From NCBI GenBank assembly GCA_040905185.1, contig JBBDRZ010000006.1, forward strand, positions 8,039 through 72,038: DNA of 64,000 bases, written 5' to 3'. The notes under the pieces were generated by a model that saw only the letters and a program-made list of their open reading frames with translations, did not search any database and was not told the origin of the DNA. Shown piece after piece: positions 14,405 through 21,251 of the stretch; the stretch's first letter is position 1, and each line of letters begins with the position of its first letter. This DNA comes from Chloroflexota bacterium. Its GTDB lineage: Bacteria; Chloroflexota; Limnocylindria; QHBO01. A program made the translations under genes and the position numbers.

Positions 14405-14704
14405 TCAGGATCGGGCGCGAACCTTGTCGAAGCAGCTGCTGCAGTAGACCGGGCGATCGTTGCGCGGGAGGAACGGCACCAGGGCCTGCCCCCCACATTC
14501 GGCGCACACCGCGGCGTGCATCTCGCGGGCCCCGCCCCCCGTGCCGATGCCCAGCGCGCGGTTCTGCTTGGCAACCGCCCGGCAGCTCGAGCAGCGCTGG
14601 GGCTCGTGGGTCAGCCCCTTCTCCTGATAGAACTGCTGCTCGCCGGCCGAGAAGACGAAGTCCATCCCGCAGTCGCGGCACGTGATGGTCTTGTCGGTCA
14701 ACAC
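14405..14704 (-). CDS. small zinc-ribbon domain protein (zf-trcl-like)
   Basis: CRDCG...C..C and CAECG...CSSC pairs with the conserved FxFSAGEQQFYQEKG block. Confidence 0.55.
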   Translation of the reverse strand: MLTDKTITCRDCGMDFVFSAGEQQFYQEKGLTHEPQRCSSCRAVAKQNRALGIGTGGGAREMHAAVCAECGGQALVPFLPRNDRPVYCSSCFDKVRARS

Positions 14705-14843
14705 CTGCCCTCTCCTCCGTGTCGTGGTCGCCCGGCCCTCGGTTCTCCGGCTCCTCGGGCCGTGGATCGCGACCTGGGATGAGCTGGTGTTCCGGACCTA
14801 CCAGCCGCCGATGATGCCACGCAGGTCAAGCGTCGGGAACCCT

Positions 14844-16362: not shown

Positions 16363-16809
16363 TCAATGCTCGGCGACGACCTCGACCCGGACCTGGGCCT
16401 CGAGACCCGGCATCAGGTGCACGCTCACCACGTGCTCGCCCACGGTCTTGATCGGCTCGCCAAGGTGAATGTCATGCCGGTCGATCTCGATCCCCTCCTG
16501 TCGCAGGCGATCGGCGACGTCGCGCGTCGTCACCGAGCCGAACAGCCGATCTCGTTCGCCGGCCTTGACGCCGATCTGGACGGTCAGCTCCCCGAGGCGC
16601 GCGGCGATGGCCTCGGCGTCAGCGCGCAGGGACCGATCGCGCTCGTCCCGCTGGTCGCGGTGGCGCTCCCAATTGCGGATGGCGCCCAGGTCGGCGAGGA
16701 CGGCCGCTCCGGTGGGGATGAGGTGATTCCGGGCGTACCCGTCCTTCACGTCCTTCAGGTCGCCCTCGCGGCCCAGGCCCTTCACGTCACGCTTCAGGAT
16801 GACCTTCAT
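16363..16809 (-). CDS. rplI: 50S ribosomal protein L9
   Basis: MKVILKRDVKGLGREGDLKDVKDGYARNHLIP is the canonical L9 start, with a GGAGGTGGA RBS directly upstream. The ORF-track start at 16848 is an upstream extension. The start overlaps the DUF1232 stop (ATGA). Confidence 0.9.
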   Translation of the reverse strand: MKVILKRDVKGLGREGDLKDVKDGYARNHLIPTGAAVLADLGAIRNWERHRDQRDERDRSLRADAEAIAARLGELTVQIGVKAGERDRLFGSVTTRDVADRLRQEGIEIDRHDIHLGEPIKTVGEHVVSVHLMPGLEAQVRVEVVAEH

Positions 16810-17288
16810 TCCACCTCCACCGGGGTCTTGGCGCGGGCGGCGCGCCACTTCCCGATCTGACGTTTGACCTCAGTCGAGTCCCGAAGCCCGCCATACCGAC
16901 CCAGGAGCTGGGGCAACGTGTCCCGAATTCGATCGTAGCGGTCCCCGAGCAGCGAGCGGAGGCGAGCCAGGTCGGCGTCCAGCATCGCCTGCCCGGCGGC
17001 AGCTCGGGCCAGGTGCTCTTCTCGGACCGCCGCCGGCGCATTGCTGATGAACAGGTCCAGGACAAGGAGCAGGACGGTCAGATCATCGGCGGCGCCGAGG
17101 ATGGGGACGACGTCGGGAATCAGGTCGATGGGCACCACGACGTAGACCAGGGCCGCGATGAGCAGCGCCTTGAGGCCGAGCGGAGTGCGGGGATCTCGGG
17201 CCAGGCCCCACACCAGGCGAGCGTAGGTGGGCAACTGGAGGAGGACTTTGGCGGTGCGCAGATAGCGCCACCGGCCGGGACGCAGCAC
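16806..17288 (-). CDS. DUF1232 (YkvA-like) membrane protein
   Basis: LKALLIAALVYVVVPIDLIPDVVPILGAADDLTV is the DUF1232 signature. A likely GTG start (VLRPGRW...) has GGAGG about 9 nt upstream. The ORF-track ATG at 17438 would overlap lexA and its promoter, so I reject it. Confidence 0.55.
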   Translation of the reverse strand: MLRPGRWRYLRTAKVLLQLPTYARLVWGLARDPRTPLGLKALLIAALVYVVVPIDLIPDVVPILGAADDLTVLLLVLDLFISNAPAAVREEHLARAAAGQAMLDADLARLRSLLGDRYDRIRDTLPQLLGRYGGLRDSTEVKRQIGKWRAARAKTPVEVE

Positions 17289-17353
17289 TCGGTTTGGCCT
17301 CCGGTCAGTCCGACGAGATGAGTGGGCCGGGATGATACCAAGCGATTGACAAT

Positions 17354-17367
17354 AGAACAGGTGTTCT
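17354..17367. promoter_or_regulatory. LexA (Cheo-type) SOS box AGAACAGGTGTTCT inside the lexA promoter (TTGACA -35 / TAGGGT -10)
   Basis: Perfect GAAC-N4-GTTC palindrome in the spacer between TTGACA (~17345) and TAGGGT (~17369). The -10 abuts the GTG start, so the transcript is probably leaderless. Positions ±2. Confidence 0.8.
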
Positions 17368-17373
17368 GCTAGG

Positions 17374-18048
17374 GTGCTGTGCGTGACCCGGCACGACGCC
17401 GAACGCCGACAGCGCATCGTGGAGTACATCGCCCGCACCGTGGCCGAGCGCGGCTATCCGCCCTCGGTCCGCGAGATCGCGGATGCGGTGGGCCTTGCCT
17501 CGACATCAGCCGTCCATCACCACCTCGTGGCCCTCGAACGCTCCGGGCAGCTGGAACGCGGCACCCGCTCGTCGCGTGCCCTGCGCCTGACTGCCACCGC
17601 GGAAGGCATGGCGCCTCCGGCACGGCCGGCGCGCGGCGCGGTCACTCCCTTCCGGATGCCCATGGAGCGTGATGTCCTGCGGCTCCCGGTGATCGGCGAG
17701 ATCGCGGCCGGCCAGCCCATCGAGGCCTACCAGGACCCCAGCCAGACGCTCGAGGTCCCGAGCTCGCTCCAGGCCCGGGACGACTCGTACGTCCTGCGCG
17801 TGCGCGGGCGAAGCATGGTCGACGCGCTCATCGACGACGGGGACTACGTCATCGTTCAGCCCCAGGCCACGGCCCGCGACGGGGACATCGTGGTCGCCCT
17901 GTTGGAGGACAACGGAGTCACCCTGAAGCGCTTCTACCGCGAGGAGGGGCGCATCCGCCTCCAGCCCGCCAACCCGGAGATGGAACCCATCTACGCCACC
18001 GAGCTCCAGATCCAGGGCAAGGTGGTCGGCGTCATCCGCAAGCTTTGA
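17374..18048 (+). CDS. lexA: LexA repressor
   Basis: wHTH (YPPSVREIADAVGL), Ala-Gly cleavage site (GEIAAGQPIEA) and the S24 peptidase Ser/Lys dyad (RVRGRSM ... VTLKR). A GTG at 17374 or 17383 are equally possible starts. Confidence 0.9.
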   Translation: MLCVTRHDAERRQRIVEYIARTVAERGYPPSVREIADAVGLASTSAVHHHLVALERSGQLERGTRSSRALRLTATAEGMAPPARPARGAVTPFRMPMERDVLRLPVIGEIAAGQPIEAYQDPSQTLEVPSSLQARDDSYVLRVRGRSMVDALIDDGDYVIVQPQATARDGDIVVALLEDNGVTLKRFYREEGRIRLQPANPEMEPIYATELQIQGKVVGVIRKL

Positions 18049-18161
18049 TCAACTGAACCGATGGCGGCGGTCGTGCCGCCGCTAGGCTGGTGGGACCCAT
18101 GGTCCAGCCGATGCTCACCCTTCGCCAGCTGGATCGGGGCTACCCGGGTACGGACTGACCG

Positions 18162-19343
18162 ATGCGCACCATCATCCATGCCGACCTCGACGCGTACTAC
18201 GCCTCGGTGGAGGTGCTCGATGACCCGTCGCTGAGGGGTCTGCCGGTGATCGTGGGCGGCCGTCCCGACGACCGGGGCGTGGTCAGCGCCGCGTCCTACG
18301 AGGCGCGCCGCTTCGGGGTCCACTCCGCCATGCCCCTGCGCACAGCCGCGCGGCTCTGTCCGCAGGGCGTCTTCCTGCCCGGCCGATTCGAACGCTATGC
18401 GGAAGTCAGCCTCCAGGTCATGCGGATATTCGACACGTTCACGCCGCTGGTCGAGCCCATCAGCCTGGACGAGGCATTCCTGGACGTCACCGGGGCTCCC
18501 GCCGGGGATGGGCGAACCATCGGCCAGGCCATCAAGGATCGGGTTCGCGCCGAAGTGGGCCTGGTGGTCAGCGTCGGGGTGGCCACCAACAAGCTCGTGG
18601 CCAAGGTCGCCTCGGACCTGCGCAAGCCCGATGCGCTGGTGATCGTCGAGCCAGGCGACGAGGCCGCGTTCCTGGCCCCGTTGCCGGTGTCCCGCCTGTG
18701 GGGCGTGGGCCCGCGCGTGCGGCAGGCGCTGGCTGACTACGGGGTGACGATCATCGGCCAGCTGGCGGCGGTGCCGGAGGGGACCCTGCGTCGGCGATTC
18801 GGTCGCCACGGCGTGGATCTCCGCCATCGCGCGCGCGGCATTGATCCGTCGCCGGTAGTGCCGGGCCATGCGCCGAAGTCCATCGGTCATGAGCACACCT
18901 TCAACACCGACGTCACCGAGCGGACCGGGCTGGACGGCACCCTCCTGTGGCTGTCGGAGTCGGTGGCGGGGCGCCTGCGGCGCCACCACATGGCGGCGGG
19001 CGGAGTGCAGCTCAAGCTCCGCTACGAGGGCTTCGAGACGCTGACCCGGCAGGCGACGCTGCCGCACCCGACCACGGACGCTCAGATCCTGCTGGACGTC
19101 ATCCACCGCCTCCTGGACCGAACCCTGCAACCGGGCCGTGCGGTGCGACTGATCGGCATCACCGCCATCTCGCTGGTGGACGCCCAGCAGCTGACCCTGT
19201 TCGACGACGGCCAGCGCGTTCAGCGGCTGGCGGAGGCCACCGACGCGGTCCGCGAGAAGTTCGGTGACCGGGCCATCACCCGGGCCCGGTTGTTGCGCGA
19301 GGCGCCGGAACGCCGGTTCAGCGAGCGCCCACCAGAGTCTTGA
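18162..19343 (+). CDS. dinB: DNA polymerase IV (Y-family)
   Basis: MRTIIHADLDAYYASVE start, with palm, finger, thumb and little-finger motifs of the DinB/DinP family. Confidence 0.9.
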   Translation: MRTIIHADLDAYYASVEVLDDPSLRGLPVIVGGRPDDRGVVSAASYEARRFGVHSAMPLRTAARLCPQGVFLPGRFERYAEVSLQVMRIFDTFTPLVEPISLDEAFLDVTGAPAGDGRTIGQAIKDRVRAEVGLVVSVGVATNKLVAKVASDLRKPDALVIVEPGDEAAFLAPLPVSRLWGVGPRVRQALADYGVTIIGQLAAVPEGTLRRRFGRHGVDLRHRARGIDPSPVVPGHAPKSIGHEHTFNTDVTERTGLDGTLLWLSESVAGRLRRHHMAAGGVQLKLRYEGFETLTRQATLPHPTTDAQILLDVIHRLLDRTLQPGRAVRLIGITAISLVDAQQLTLFDDGQRVQRLAEATDAVREKFGDRAITRARLLREAPERRFSERPPES

Positions 19344-19369
19344 CAACTAGAACATGTGTTCGTATTCTG
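19340..19369 (+). promoter_or_regulatory. Sigma-A-like promoter (TTGACA-17-TATTCT) with an embedded LexA box AGAACATGTGTTCG
   Basis: TTGACA overlaps the dinB stop codon. GAAC-N4-GTTC lies in the spacer and TATTCT is the -10. An ATG follows about 6-8 nt downstream. Positions ±2. Confidence 0.7.
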
Positions 19370-19638
19370 CCGGTATGGCACTCGTCTCCATCACACCCGT
19401 CGCCGCGTCGGTCGCCTGGGATGCGCGCCACGTCCGACCCACCCGCATCCGGTTCGGTAACCGGGAGCTGCGCGTCGCGCGCCTGGCCACGGTCCGTGAC
19501 GAGCGCGCGGCGTATCCGGCGGGCAGCTCCCCGCGCCTGATGCTGGTGGTGGAGGTCGAATCCGGGGAGTCGCTGGAGCTGGTCTTCGACGCGCGGCGCC
19601 GCCGCTGGTTCGTCGACGCCCTCGACCCAGCGGCCTGA
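19354..19638 (+). CDS. small hypothetical protein under a LexA-box promoter (probably starts at the internal MALVSITPV, leaderless)
   Basis: 94-aa ORF with a mixed hydrophobic/charged composition. No motif I recognise. Preceded by the SOS-box promoter above. Confidence 0.4.
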   Translation: MCSYSAGMALVSITPVAASVAWDARHVRPTRIRFGNRELRVARLATVRDERAAYPAGSSPRLMLVVEVESGESLELVFDARRRRWFVDALDPAA

Positions 19639-19737
19639 CGGCGCTTCGGGGGCCTATCGCACAGCCCGGCGGGCGCCGCGTCCCTCTCCCGCGGGCCTGC
19701 CGGGCTCCTTCTCCGCTCCCCGTACAATCGGCTGCCC

Positions 19738-20382
19738 ATGAGCAGCCCGTCACTCGCTGAACTGACCGTCCGCGATCTCGCCGAGCGGTTGGCGTCGCGC
19801 GCCCCGGTGCCGGGCGGCGGCAGCGCCAGCGCCCTGGCCGGCGCCCTGGGAGCAGCACTGGTCGAAATGGTCTGCGAGCTCACGGTCGGGAAACCTGAGT
19901 ACGAGGACGTCGACCCCGTCGCGCGCCAGATCGGAGCCGCCGCCGGCGAGCTGCGCGGCTCCATGCTCGCCGCGGCCGAGGAGGACGCCGCCGCCTACCT
20001 GGACGTGGTCGCCGCGCGTCGTCTGCCGCGCGACAGCGACGAGGAACGGGCGGCGCGAAAGGCCGCCATCGGCGAGGCATCGGTGGTCGCGACCGAGGTC
20101 CCGCTGCGGGTGGCCCGGCTCGCGGCCGAGGTCCTCGACCTGGCGGCCAGCATCGCTTCCATCGGCAATCGCAACGCGGTCAGCGACGCGGGTGCCGCGG
20201 CGCTGCTGGCCGCGGCGGCAGCCCGGGGAGCGGCCCTCAACGTGAGGATCAACCTGCCCTCGCTTCCGAAAGCTCATCCACTGCGGGCCGACGCCGCGGT
20301 GCGGCTGGCCGAGCTGGAGTCCAGCGTGTCCAAACGCGAGGCCGAGGCACTGGGGGCAGTCAGTCAGAGGATGAGCGTGTGA
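19738..20382 (+). CDS. cyclodeaminase/cyclohydrolase family protein (FTCD C-terminal-like; methenyl-THF cyclohydrolase/formimino-THF cyclodeaminase)
   Basis: PGGGSASALAGALGAALVEMV matches the FTCD_C motif. Overlaps folD by 4 nt. Confidence 0.7.
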   Translation: MSSPSLAELTVRDLAERLASRAPVPGGGSASALAGALGAALVEMVCELTVGKPEYEDVDPVARQIGAAAGELRGSMLAAAEEDAAAYLDVVAARRLPRDSDEERAARKAAIGEASVVATEVPLRVARLAAEVLDLAASIASIGNRNAVSDAGAAALLAAAAARGAALNVRINLPSLPKAHPLRADAAVRLAELESSVSKREAEALGAVSQRMSV

Positions 20383-21251
20383 GCGGCCGCATCCTCCACG
20401 GTCGCTTGATTGCCGATCTCCACCGCCACGACCTCGCCGCCCGCGTGAGTGTGCTCATTGCCGGCGTGCATGTGCCCGGTCTGGCGATCCTGCGGTTCGC
20501 GGACACGGGACCCGAGGTTTCCTACGCCCAGAGCCTCGCGCGCTCGGCCGGCTCGATCGGCATCGCGCCGATGGACGTCCGCCTTGCGGATCACGCCACC
20601 ATGGACGAAGCCGCTGCCGCCCTCGAGGCCCTGAACCGGGACCCGACCGTGGCCGGCATCGTTGTCATCTATCCCATCCCGGGTCACCTGGACCCCGAGG
20701 CGGTCGGTCGGCTGGTTGATCCCGCCAAAGACGTTGACGGGGCGAGCCCGGTGAGTACGGAACGGCTGGCCCGCGGCGAGCCCGCCTTCGTGCCCGCGAC
20801 CGCGGTGGCGGTGATGGAAATCCTGAACCACTACCGGATTCCGGTGGCCGGACGCCCTACAGTCGTCGTTGGGCGCTCCCGGGTCGTAGGTCAGCCGACG
20901 GCGGCCCTGTTGGCTGTCAAAGGTGCAAACGTGGCGGTGGCCCACAGCGAAACAGCGGATCTGGCGCGCGCGACGCGAGCAGCGGAGATCCTGGTGGTGG
21001 CCGCCGGGGTGCCGGAGCTCATCGGACCGGATCACGTCAACTCGACCGCGGTGGTCGTGGACTGCGGAATCAACATCACCGATGCCGGCGTGGTCGGCGA
21101 CGTCGACTTCGAACGGGTGCGCCCGCTGGTCGACGCCATCACCCCGGTCCCCGGCGGCGTGGGACCGGTGACCACGGTGATGCTGCTCGACCAGGTCGTT
21201 ACGGCCGCCGAACGGGCGGCTCGCCTGGTCACCAACATCGCGACGGACTGA
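20379..21251 (+). CDS. folD: bifunctional methylene-THF dehydrogenase / methenyl-THF cyclohydrolase
   Basis: FolD motifs (GRSRVVGQPTAALL, VAHS, GGVGPVT). Confidence 0.9.
   Translation: MSGRILHGRLIADLHRHDLAARVSVLIAGVHVPGLAILRFADTGPEVSYAQSLARSAGSIGIAPMDVRLADHATMDEAAAALEALNRDPTVAGIVVIYPIPGHLDPEAVGRLVDPAKDVDGASPVSTERLARGEPAFVPATAVAVMEILNHYRIPVAGRPTVVVGRSRVVGQPTAALLAVKGANVAVAHSETADLARATRAAEILVVAAGVPELIGPDHVNSTAVVVDCGINITDAGVVGDVDFERVRPLVDAITPVPGGVGPVTTVMLLDQVVTAAERAARLVTNIATD

What the first reader, a model, noticed from the sequence alone, without database searches (positions are those of the whole stretch)
17280..19640. Two Cheo-type SOS boxes: lexA autoregulation, and a dedicated LexA-box promoter driving an unknown small ORF right after dinB
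AGAACAGGTGTTCT sits between the TTGACA and TAGGGT elements of the lexA promoter. The transcript is probably leaderless, since the GTG start abuts the -10.

A second perfect GAAC-N4-GTTC (AGAACATGTGTTCG) is embedded in a textbook TTGACA-17-TATTCT promoter that overlaps the dinB stop codon. An ATG a few nt downstream opens an 87-94 aa ORF (19354..19638) with no recognisable domain. This is a candidate novel SOS-induced small protein.

The divergent DUF1232-rplI pair (GTG start ~17288, stop overlapping the rplI start) shares the lexA upstream region and may also respond to LexA.
Basis: partly seen in the sequence, partly recalled or inferred. Interest (0 to 1): 0.6.

Follow-up and report, generated by a model that had tools for sequence, protein, structure and literature searches.

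The report
LexA-controlled orphan small protein gene
A small gene just after the DNA-damage polymerase gene dinB has its own promoter blocked by the SOS repressor LexA. It encodes a real 87-residue protein of unknown fold and function, conserved with that control across a whole uncultivated class of Chloroflexota, so it is a solid new SOS-response gene but not a new kind of system.

Summary
The 64-kb window holds only three perfect GAAC-N4-GTTC boxes. One lies in the lexA promoter. One lies in a TTGACA-17-TATTCT promoter overlapping the dinB stop codon.

The small ORF starts at ATG 19375, giving 87 aa, not at 19354. It starts 6 nt after the -10 with no Shine-Dalgarno, so it is probably leaderless. 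It is a real gene: dN/dS is 0.04-0.28 and there are about 700 homologues, all in Limnocylindria (Chloroflexota).

A perfect box precedes it in all 78 usable species genomes and in seven loci from two further lineages. Most carry two boxes about 31 bp apart, even where the gene order is rearranged. In many genomes a convergent gene follows, so the boxes do not serve fchA/folD.

The protein is basic, has no membrane segment and is confidently predicted as all-beta. It has no sequence-family or structural match. In 86% of members it ends in Ala-Ala, against a 1.8% background, which suggests an ssrA-like degron.

Best reading: a tightly repressed, short-lived SOS effector whose target is unknown. 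LexA control of DUF1232-rplI is not supported.

The parts
17346..17351 (+). lexA promoter -35 (TTGACA)
   Evidence: Read directly. Invariant in 66/66 orthologous loci.
17355..17366 (.). LexA operator of lexA (GAACAGGTGTTC), in the -35/-10 spacer
   Evidence: A perfect box is present in 66/66 lexA promoters.
17370..17375 (+). lexA promoter -10 (TAGGGT; conserved TAnnnT)
17383..18048 (+). lexA CDS (GTG start 7 nt after the -10, probably leaderless). The Ala-Gly site (EIAAGQP), GRSM Ser and TLKRF Lys are present.
   Evidence: Pfam LexA_DNA_bind plus Peptidase_S24. Motifs read from the translation.
18099..18158 (+). 19-codon remnant of an AlkZ-like DNA glycosylase gene lost by a clean 1,092-bp in-frame deletion
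   Evidence: Alignment to L002. The intact L002 gene matches PF06224 at 6.6e-56.
18162..19343 (+). dinB (Y-family polymerase IV). Probably co-transcribed with lexA, because no promoter-like site lies between them.
   Evidence: Pfam IMS, IMS_HHH and IMS_C. Promoter scan.
19308..19319 (.). Auxiliary perfect LexA box (GAACGCCGGTTC) inside the dinB 3' end, 42 bp (about 4 helical turns) upstream of the promoter box
   Evidence: Also perfect in L001, L004 and L005, but degenerate in L002 and L003.
19340..19345 (+). Small-ORF promoter -35 (TTGACA), overlapping the dinB stop codon
19350..19361 (.). LexA operator of the small ORF (GAACATGTGTTC), in the 17-nt spacer
19363..19368 (+). Small-ORF promoter -10 (TATTCT)
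19375..19638 (+). Small ORF: 87 aa, leaderless ATG, basic (pI 10.9), all-beta, C-terminal Ala-Ala. An orphan family restricted to Limnocylindria.
17332..17340 (-). Conserved extended -10 (TGgTATCAT) of the divergent DUF1232-rplI operon
   Evidence: Its distance to the LexA box is not conserved.
16806..17288 (-). DUF1232 membrane protein gene (GTG start, GGAGG 9 nt upstream). It overlaps the rplI start by 7 nt.
16363..16812 (-). rplI (ribosomal protein L9)

Best explanation
The 17.3-19.6 kb region is the core SOS locus of a Limnocylindria (Chloroflexota) genome.

Proposed regulation:
- LexA binds GAAC-N4-GTTC operators placed in the -35/-10 spacer of two strong promoters.
- One promoter is lexA's own. 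It probably also transcribes dinB, across the remnant of a deleted alkZ-like gene.
- The other is a separate promoter whose -35 overlaps the dinB stop codon. It drives a monocistronic, leaderless mRNA for an 87-aa protein.
- After DNA damage, RecA-stimulated LexA self-cleavage frees both promoters.

Proposed behaviour of the small protein:
- It is a cytoplasmic, Arg-rich, all-beta protein found only in this class.
- It is made as a pulse. Two operators in most genomes keep it tightly off. In the window there is one operator in the promoter and one 42 bp upstream.
- The conserved C-terminal Ala-Ala probably marks it for ClpXP-type degradation once LexA returns.

Shown here: the operators, promoter geometry, coding status, class-wide co-conservation of ORF and operators, absence of any known domain or fold, and the C-terminal Ala-Ala.

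Inferred: LexA binding, damage induction, leaderless translation and the degron.

Function: the biochemical target is unknown. My preferred guess, at about 0.3, is a SulA-like cytoplasmic checkpoint inhibitor of division or replication. A modulator of DinB/translesion synthesis is about 0.2 (see the rival explanations). The confidence given below refers to the statement 'genuine LexA-repressed gene for a real, short-lived small effector protein'.
For: Operators and promoters:
- Three perfect boxes occur in 64 kb against 0.55 expected, all in this region.
- The only sigma-70-like promoter hit in 3.8 kb is the small-ORF promoter.
- A perfect box lies within 120 nt upstream of the ORF in 77/78 species genomes. 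Only five stray boxes occur in about 800 kb of flanking DNA.
- Box 1 always sits between TTGACA and TATnnT. In 62 loci a second perfect box follows 27-36 bp downstream (mode 30-32 bp).
- The same dual-box promoter is found in Limnocylindrales, where lexA is inverted away from dinB and dinB has no perfect box.
- It is also found in Limnocylindrus, where the ORF is divergent from rplI.
- The box-to-ATG distance is fixed at 13-14 nt in 18 loci of the leaderless clade despite sequence change, with no Shine-Dalgarno sequence.

Coding status and family:
- dN/dS is 0.04-0.28, and differences are concentrated at third codon positions.
- There are 57 plus 642 homologues, mostly 86-90 aa, with a conserved MAL start.
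- The AlphaFold2 model has pLDDT 88 and pTM 0.78, with six beta strands.

Protein properties:
- 216 of 251 members (86%) end in Ala-Ala although the tail length varies from 7 to 40 residues. The background is 12/652 (1.8%).
- There is no membrane segment, and the family median pI is 10.3.

Literature:
- GAAC-N4-GTTC is the LexA motif of Firmicutes and Actinobacteria, with variants reported in Chloroflexi (PMC4951493).
- The SOS protein RecN is controlled by ClpXP (PMC10165496).
Against: - There is no experimental evidence of LexA binding, induction, the transcription start or the protein itself. The class is known here only from metagenome-assembled genomes.
- The loci are related by descent, so the counts are not independent events. 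However, the surrounding intergenic sequence has diverged beyond alignment.
- No terminator-like site was found after the ORF in the window, so read-through into fchA/folD cannot be excluded here.
- The degron idea rests only on a dipeptide. The presence of ClpX and the tmRNA tag of this lineage were not checked, and the Limnocylindrus branch ends in His-Ala.
- Nothing in the sequence or model points to a specific partner.
Confidence: 0.8

Rival explanations
1. The small protein is an accessory or regulatory subunit of DinB (Pol IV), or of translesion synthesis at the replisome. It would be functionally analogous to UmuD or ImuA and be made only after damage to switch on or restrain a polymerase that is otherwise present.
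For: - The ORF lies immediately downstream of dinB on the same strand in all 80 species-genome loci and in Limnocylindrales.
- It remains within about 1 kb of dinB in Limnocylindrus.
- In Limnocylindrales dinB has no perfect box of its own whereas the small gene has two. This fits a constitutive polymerase with an inducible regulator.
- From established knowledge: tight repression plus proteolytic lability also describes UmuD/UmuC.
Against: - The whole dnaB-to-folD neighbourhood is syntenic across the class, so adjacency carries little specific information.
- The gene is never co-transcribed with dinB and always has its own promoter.
- Insertions of 0.5-2.3 kb separate the two genes in L017, L069 and L072.
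- In Limnocylindrus dinB is on the opposite strand, beyond rplI.
- There is no beta-clamp-binding motif; the window protein contains no Gln at all.
- There is no similarity to UmuD (S24 peptidase) or to ImuA.
Confidence: 0.2
2. The small protein is a feedback modulator of the SOS switch itself. It would be a RecA-filament or LexA co-regulator, functionally like DinI, RecX, Acinetobacter DdrR or phage GIL01 gp7.
For: - It is small, lineage-specific, encoded in the lexA locus and LexA-controlled.
- Precedents exist for small SOS-locus proteins that tune repressor binding: DdrR (PMC11332147) and gp7 (PMC4551915), both listed.
Against: - It has no sequence or fold similarity to any of these proteins.
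- From established knowledge, DinI acts through an acidic DNA-mimicking helix, whereas this protein is strongly basic and all-beta.
- The Ala-Gly in the conserved loop of the window clade is not conserved in the wider family. A LexA cleavage-site mimic is therefore unlikely.
Confidence: 0.12
3. The small protein is an SOS-induced toxin or nucleoid-binding growth arrester (functionally SymE-like) that binds nucleic acid through its Arg-rich surface.
For: - The pI is 10.9 with 14 Arg in 87 residues, and the family median pI is 10.3.
- Double operators plus a putative degron amount to multi-level containment, which is typical of toxic SOS products.
- A possible extra 5'-UTR hairpin is present in the leadered orthologues.
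Against: - No antitoxin gene or antisense RNA is evident.
- It is single-copy, vertically inherited and syntenic rather than mobile.
- No PADLOC or PHROG match was found.
Confidence: 0.12
4. The boxes mainly control read-through transcription into the folate one-carbon genes fchA-folD(-fhs), and the small ORF is incidental.
For: - In the window and its close relatives fchA starts about 100 nt after the ORF on the same strand, and no terminator-like site was detected.
- The GC-rich hairpin at about 19663-19705 is not better than shuffled controls (z = -1.8).
Against: - In many loci (for example L017, L019-L021, L023, L024, L027-L029) a convergent formyltransferase gene lies between the ORF and fchA, yet the dual boxes persist.
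- In Limnocylindrus a psiE gene intervenes.
- The ORF is under strong purifying selection.
Confidence: 0.05

Closest known systems
Cheo-box (GAAC-N4-GTTC) LexA operators of Firmicutes and Actinobacteria, and the Dehalococcoides LexA site (Fernandez de Henestrosa et al. 2002, cited in PMC4951493)
   Same: The palindrome is identical. The operator overlaps the core promoter. lexA is autoregulated. Tandem operators are used on some targets.
   Different: The consensus here is T(A/C)GAAC-N4-GTTC(G/T). It is placed precisely in the -35/-10 spacer of both promoters. The lineage (Limnocylindria) has no described SOS regulon in the literature I could search.
Gram-positive SOS cell-division inhibitors YneA, ChiZ (Rv2719c), DivS and SosA
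   Same: These are small, lineage-specific proteins with no mutual homology. They are encoded in the lexA locus under their own LexA box, and proteolysis through the extreme C-terminus ends their action (PMC6851548).
   Different: [quoted passage not shown] This protein has no hydrophobic segment and no LysM. It lies two genes downstream of lexA on the same strand.
SulA of gamma-proteobacteria
   Same: It is a cytoplasmic, tightly LexA-repressed and protease-labile checkpoint protein, so the proposed logic is the same.
   Different: SulA is about 169 aa with an alpha/beta fold and is degraded by Lon. There is no sequence or structural similarity.
ssrA-like C-terminal degrons (ClpX 'C-motif 1') on SOS proteins such as RecN and the LexA N-terminal fragment
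   Same: The protein ends in a terminal Ala-Ala-COOH after a variable tail, in an SOS-induced protein. RecN levels are controlled by ClpXP (PMC10165496).
   Different: The degron is only inferred here. The residue before Ala-Ala is variable (P, R, V, T, A) rather than Leu.
E. coli dinB-yafNOP operon (small genes downstream of dinB)
   Same: Small genes of unrelated function follow dinB within the SOS regulon.
   Different: The yafNOP genes are co-transcribed with dinB, whereas this gene has its own promoter and operators. The comparison rests on my own knowledge of the E. coli operon and was not tested here.

Membership tests
LexA (SOS) regulon target | A match to the lineage's LexA-binding motif | tested here: met
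   Perfect GAAC-N4-GTTC boxes lie at 19350-19361 and at 19308-19319. The motif is the same as in the lexA promoter.
LexA (SOS) regulon target | The operator overlaps the core promoter or the transcription start | tested here: met
   The box lies in the 17-nt spacer of TTGACA/TATTCT. The same placement is seen in 80 loci.
LexA (SOS) regulon target | The site is conserved upstream of orthologues (phylogenetic footprint) | tested here: met
   A box is present in 77/78 loci within 120 nt, with the 78th displaced by an insertion. Seven loci from two other lineages also carry it.
LexA (SOS) regulon target | The genome encodes a LexA with an HTH domain and an S24 self-cleavage domain | tested here: met
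   Pfam LexA_DNA_bind at 1.3e-19 and Peptidase_S24 at 2.6e-33. The Ala-Gly, Ser and Lys motifs are visible in the translation.
LexA (SOS) regulon target | LexA binding and damage induction demonstrated | not testable with these tools
   This needs a gel-shift or ChIP assay and mitomycin C or UV expression data.
Gram-positive SOS division inhibitors (YneA/ChiZ/DivS/SosA type) | A single transmembrane segment | tested here: not met
   The maximum Kyte-Doolittle 19-residue window is 1.00, with a family median of 0.74. The AF2 model is a soluble all-beta domain.
Gram-positive SOS division inhibitors (YneA/ChiZ/DivS/SosA type) | A LysM or extracellular C-terminal domain | tested here: not met
   There is no Pfam hit at E <= 10.
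Gram-positive SOS division inhibitors (YneA/ChiZ/DivS/SosA type) | Divergently transcribed neighbour of lexA | tested here: not met
   The gene is 1.3 kb downstream of lexA on the same strand. The divergent neighbour of lexA is DUF1232.
Gram-positive SOS division inhibitors (YneA/ChiZ/DivS/SosA type) | Blocks division when expressed | not testable with these tools
   This needs expression and microscopy.
Known small SOS protein families in Pfam or NCBIfam (SulA, DinI, YebG, UmuD/S24, ImuA and others) | A significant profile match | tested here: not met
ssrA-like ClpXP C-terminal degron | Terminal Ala-Ala-COOH | tested here: met
   216 of 251 members end in Ala-Ala, against 12/652 background ORFs.
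ssrA-like ClpXP C-terminal degron | ClpXP-dependent turnover, with ClpX present in the lineage | not tested
   clpX was not looked for, and there is no tmRNA in the window. Degradation needs experiment.
Leaderless mRNA | The start codon lies at the expected transcription start (about 7 nt after the -10) with no Shine-Dalgarno sequence | tested here: met
   The ATG at 19375 is 6 nt after TATTCT and no GGAGG is present. The spacing is conserved in the window's clade while the sequence varies.
Leaderless mRNA | A mapped 5' end at the start codon | not testable with these tools
   This needs 5'-RACE or dRNA-seq.

The most novel reading that the evidence does not exclude
The protein founds a new, Chloroflexota-specific class of cytoplasmic SOS effector. 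It would be either the first non-membrane SOS division or replication checkpoint protein in a GAAC-box (Gram-positive-type) SOS system, or a new damage-induced regulator of Pol IV. Its lifetime would be set by an ssrA-like Ala-Ala degron and its synthesis by a double LexA operator.
Probability: 0.3. Interest if true: 0.65.

Novelty: new member of a known kind. Interest (0 to 1): 0.5.

Why it matters
SOS regulons almost always contain lineage-specific small effectors, and these have been hard to find by homology. Known examples include division inhibitors, translesion-synthesis managers, RecA modulators and toxins.

In this case comparative genomics alone identifies one for an abundant soil and freshwater class that is known here only from metagenome-assembled genomes. 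The regulatory architecture is unusually clean:
- a perfect -35;
- an operator in the promoter spacer;
- a second operator near the expected transcription start;
- a likely degron.

The work also gives the first outline of the Limnocylindria SOS locus (lexA, alkZ-like gene, dinB and the small gene). It shows a transition from a leadered, two-operator promoter to a leaderless promoter within one gene family.

The protein is small, predicted with confidence and structurally unmatched. It should therefore be easy to test by heterologous expression.

Tried and rejected
Searches for homology or fold similarity that found nothing:
- Pfam, NCBIfam, PHROGs and PADLOC scans of the window protein and of divergent members gave no hits.
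- A profile search of PDB sequences gave nothing.
- The AFDB library was unavailable.
- An exhaustive profile search of 1.84 billion representative proteins found 95 clusters. Every cluster that carries a source name belongs to the same class, so there is no bridge to a known family.

Ideas considered and rejected:
- The conserved loop (RDERAAYPAG) could mimic the LexA Ala-Gly cleavage site. Rejected, because Ala-Gly is replaced in the large Limnocylindrales branch (for example AAYPVITGPR).
- The boxes could serve fchA/folD. Rejected on synteny.
- The ORF could be spurious or an sRNA. Rejected by dN/dS.
- LexA could control DUF1232-rplI. Not supported, because of the variable spacing.
- Further SOS genes might lie in the window. 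None were found beyond chance at one mismatch.

Not attempted:
- RNAalifold on the 5' UTRs found only the box palindrome. A manual check suggests an additional hairpin, which I did not pursue.
- The Dehalococcoides LexA paper (PMC135389) is not held.


Full report
**1. What is in the sequence**

The region reads, left to right:
- rplI (16363-16812, minus strand);
- DUF1232 (16806-17288, minus strand);
- lexA (17383-18048, plus strand);
- a 19-codon ORF remnant (18099-18158);
- dinB (18162-19343);
- the small ORF (19375-19638);
- fchA (19738-20382);
- folD (20379-21251).

The lexA promoter is TTGACA (17346-17351), an 18-nt spacer, then TAGGGT (17370-17375). The box GAACAGGTGTTC (17355-17366) lies in the spacer. 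An in-frame GTG at 17383 is 7 nt after the -10, which is compatible with a leaderless transcript.

The second promoter is TTGACA (19340-19345), a 17-nt spacer, then TATTCT (19363-19368). It contains the dinB TGA stop. The box GAACATGTGTTC (19350-19361) lies in its spacer. This was the only sigma-70-like site found in 16700-20500, where 0.1 were expected.

The window contains exactly three perfect GAAC-N4-GTTC sites against 0.55 expected. The third, GAACGCCGGTTC at 19308-19319, lies in the dinB 3' end. Sites with one mismatch occur at chance frequency.

**2. The small ORF is a real gene**

A search of 5.8 billion proteins found 57 homologues, most of them exactly 87 aa and all annotated 'hypothetical'. 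Source names, where given, are Chloroflexi or Candidatus Limnocylindria.

The alignment (A1) begins with a conserved Met-Ala-Leu that corresponds to ATG 19375. The upstream ATG at 19354 is part of the operator and is absent from close relatives.

Against eleven relatives, dN/dS is 0.04-0.28. Differences are concentrated at third codon positions.

An exhaustive profile search of 1.84 billion cluster representatives found 95 clusters. A second word-index search, seeded with a divergent member, found 642 more proteins named Candidatus Limnocylindrales or Chloroflexi. Cluster look-ups add Candidatus Limnocylindrus.

The family is therefore class-wide and, as far as the source names show, restricted to that class.

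**3. The operators belong to this gene**

A scan of one genome per species returned 80 loci. All show the same order: dnaB, rplI, DUF1232, lexA, an optional gene, dinB, small ORF, an optional gene, fchA, folD.

A perfect box lies within 120 nt upstream of the small ORF in 77 of 78 loci that have enough upstream sequence. In the 78th (L079) a 60-nt in-frame N-terminal extension moves the boxes further away. Only five other perfect boxes occur in the roughly 800 kb of sequence fetched. All 66 lexA promoters examined have one perfect box.

Most loci have two boxes upstream of the small ORF:
- The first is always in the spacer of TTGACA / TATnnT.
- The second is 27-36 bp downstream (mode 30-32 bp, about three helical turns). 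That places it near the expected transcription start.
- A 5' UTR with a GAAGGAG-type Shine-Dalgarno sequence follows.

The window's clade (L001-L016, L063) has lost the second box and the leader. There the ATG sits 13-14 nt after the box, with no Shine-Dalgarno sequence. In the window, L001, L004 and L005 a perfect upstream box has appeared inside dinB instead.

Two further lineages were examined through contig look-ups:
- In Limnocylindrales the rplI-DUF1232-lexA block is inverted and dinB has no perfect box. The small ORF keeps its dual-box promoter.
- In Limnocylindrus dinB and rplI are inverted, so the small ORF is divergent from rplI, and a psiE gene separates it from fchA. The dual-box promoter is again intact.

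In many soil genomes a convergent formyltransferase gene (Pfam Formyl_trans_N) lies between the small ORF and fchA.

The operators therefore track the small ORF, not dinB and not fchA/folD.

**4. The protein**

The window protein has these properties:
- 87 aa and 9.7 kDa;
- pI 10.9, with 14 Arg and no Lys;
- a family median pI of 10.3;
- no hydrophobic segment (maximum Kyte-Doolittle 19-residue window 1.0);
- no paralogue in the window.

AlphaFold2 run with alignment A1 gives a confident model (pLDDT 88, pTM 0.78). It has six sequential beta strands and one short helical turn. That turn lies in the most conserved loop, VRDE-AAYP...GPR, and a second conserved motif, RRRW, lies in the last hairpin.

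One feature stands out. 216 of 251 complete family members (86%) end in Ala-Ala, although the tail after the RRW motif varies from 7 to 40 residues and is otherwise variable. Among 652 other long ORFs in the same loci only 1.8% end this way, which is the value expected from the Ala frequency.

A terminal Ala-Ala is the key determinant of the ssrA tag recognised by ClpX (established knowledge). The SOS protein RecN is likewise controlled by ClpXP (PMC10165496).

**5. How it most likely works**

Shown here:
- two promoters, each with a LexA-type palindrome in the spacer;
- a LexA with both domains and the cleavage motifs;
- a conserved protein-coding gene whose operators are maintained through three genome rearrangements and through a leadered-to-leaderless transition.

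Inferred:
- LexA occupies the operator(s) and excludes RNA polymerase.
- Damage-activated RecA triggers LexA cleavage.
- The strong promoter then fires.
- The protein accumulates and is removed through its C-terminus after repression is restored.

Double operators, a perfect -35 and a degron together describe a pulse-type output. That pattern is typical of products which are harmful if they persist.

What the protein acts on cannot be read from the sequence. My estimates are:
- about 0.3 for a SulA-like cytoplasmic checkpoint inhibitor;
- about 0.2 for a DinB or translesion-synthesis modulator;
- about 0.12 for a RecA/LexA feedback factor;
- about 0.12 for a nucleic-acid-binding toxin.

**6. 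Comparison with known systems**

The operator is the known Firmicutes/Actinobacteria motif, with variants reported for Chloroflexi (PMC4951493).

In logic, the closest known proteins are the lineage-specific SOS division inhibitors encoded next to lexA in Gram-positive bacteria. These share no homology with one another and are ended by C-terminal proteolysis (PMC6851548).

The present protein fails their structural hallmarks. It has no transmembrane segment, no LysM domain, and is not divergent from lexA. It should therefore not be filed with them.

It is a new member of the general kind 'LexA-regulated lineage-specific small effector'. I found no literature on SOS, LexA or DinB in Limnocylindria.

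**7. The DUF1232-rplI suggestion**

On the minus strand every locus has a conserved extended -10 (TGnTATCAT), at 17340-17332 in the window. Its distance from the LexA box ranges from about 16 to 62 nt between genomes.

In the window the box would centre near -36 of that promoter, so some effect is conceivable here. Even so, there is no conserved operator-promoter geometry, and the comparative evidence does not support LexA control.

**8. Verdict**

The finding is real, and its main interpretation is upheld and considerably strengthened. The regulation is ordinary in kind. The protein family is undescribed, confined to one class and structurally unmatched.

Interest is moderate at 0.5. It is a well-defined, easily testable new SOS gene rather than a new type of system.

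Noticed in passing
window 18057-18170 (remnant ORF 18099-18158): A clean, in-frame 1,092-bp deletion has removed an AlkZ-like DNA glycosylase gene (PF06224, 6.6e-56 in L002). In many relatives this gene sits between lexA and dinB and appears to form a lexA-alkZ-dinB operon. Its presence or absence is polymorphic across the class, judging by a 1.2-kb gap against a 0.1-kb gap.
   Followed up: yes
L017-L080 and L081-L087, 5' UTR of the small-ORF orthologues (for example L028:5950-6000): The spacer of the second LexA box is unusually conserved (CGCCTG). It is complementary to a CAGGCG 11-16 nt downstream, with 6/6 pairs in 28 of 59 loci. Compensatory variants occur (CGTCCG with CGGACG, CACCTG with CAGGTG). 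This suggests a hairpin at the 5' end of the mRNA. It is absent from the leaderless window gene.
   Followed up: partly
window 17332-17340 (minus strand) and 16806-16812: DUF1232-rplI has a conserved extended -10 (TGgTATCAT) and a GGAGG 9 nt before the GTG at 17288. The DUF1232 stop overlaps the rplI start by 7 nt, which suggests translational coupling. In L010 and L016 DUF1232 itself looks leaderless.
   Followed up: partly
window 19308-19319: A third perfect GAAC-N4-GTTC lies within dinB codons (PERRFSE), 42 bp from the promoter box. It is shared only with the closest relatives (L001, L004, L005). It may compensate for the loss of the ancestral downstream operator in the leaderless clade.
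   Followed up: partly
window 19723-19728: TACAAT lies 9 nt before the fchA ATG (19738), with no Shine-Dalgarno sequence and no convincing -35. fchA may have its own promoter and a near-leaderless start.
   Followed up: no
loci L002, L015, L022, L023, L039, L054, L068: Contigs with exactly the Limnocylindria gene order and 50-98% identical proteins are deposited in bins labelled Pleomorphomonadaceae, Vicinamibacterales, Steroidobacteraceae, Dormiibacterota, Methylomirabilota, Zixiibacteriota and Binatia. These are probably mis-binned contigs.
   Followed up: no
L085-L087 (Candidatus Limnocylindrus-type contigs): In this lineage (62-63% G+C in these loci) DinB is shorter (299-327 aa against 393) and DUF1232 is absent from the locus. 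The small protein is the most divergent in the family, having lost the RDERAAYP and RRRW motifs and ending in His-Ala. It still keeps two perfect LexA boxes.
   Followed up: partly
window 14405-14704 (minus strand): A 99-aa double treble-clef zinc-finger protein (zf_Tbcl plus zf_Tbcl_2) lies downstream of dnaB. A one-mismatch box (GAGCTGGTGTTC, 14781-14792) lies about 80 nt upstream of it, which is at chance level.
   Followed up: no
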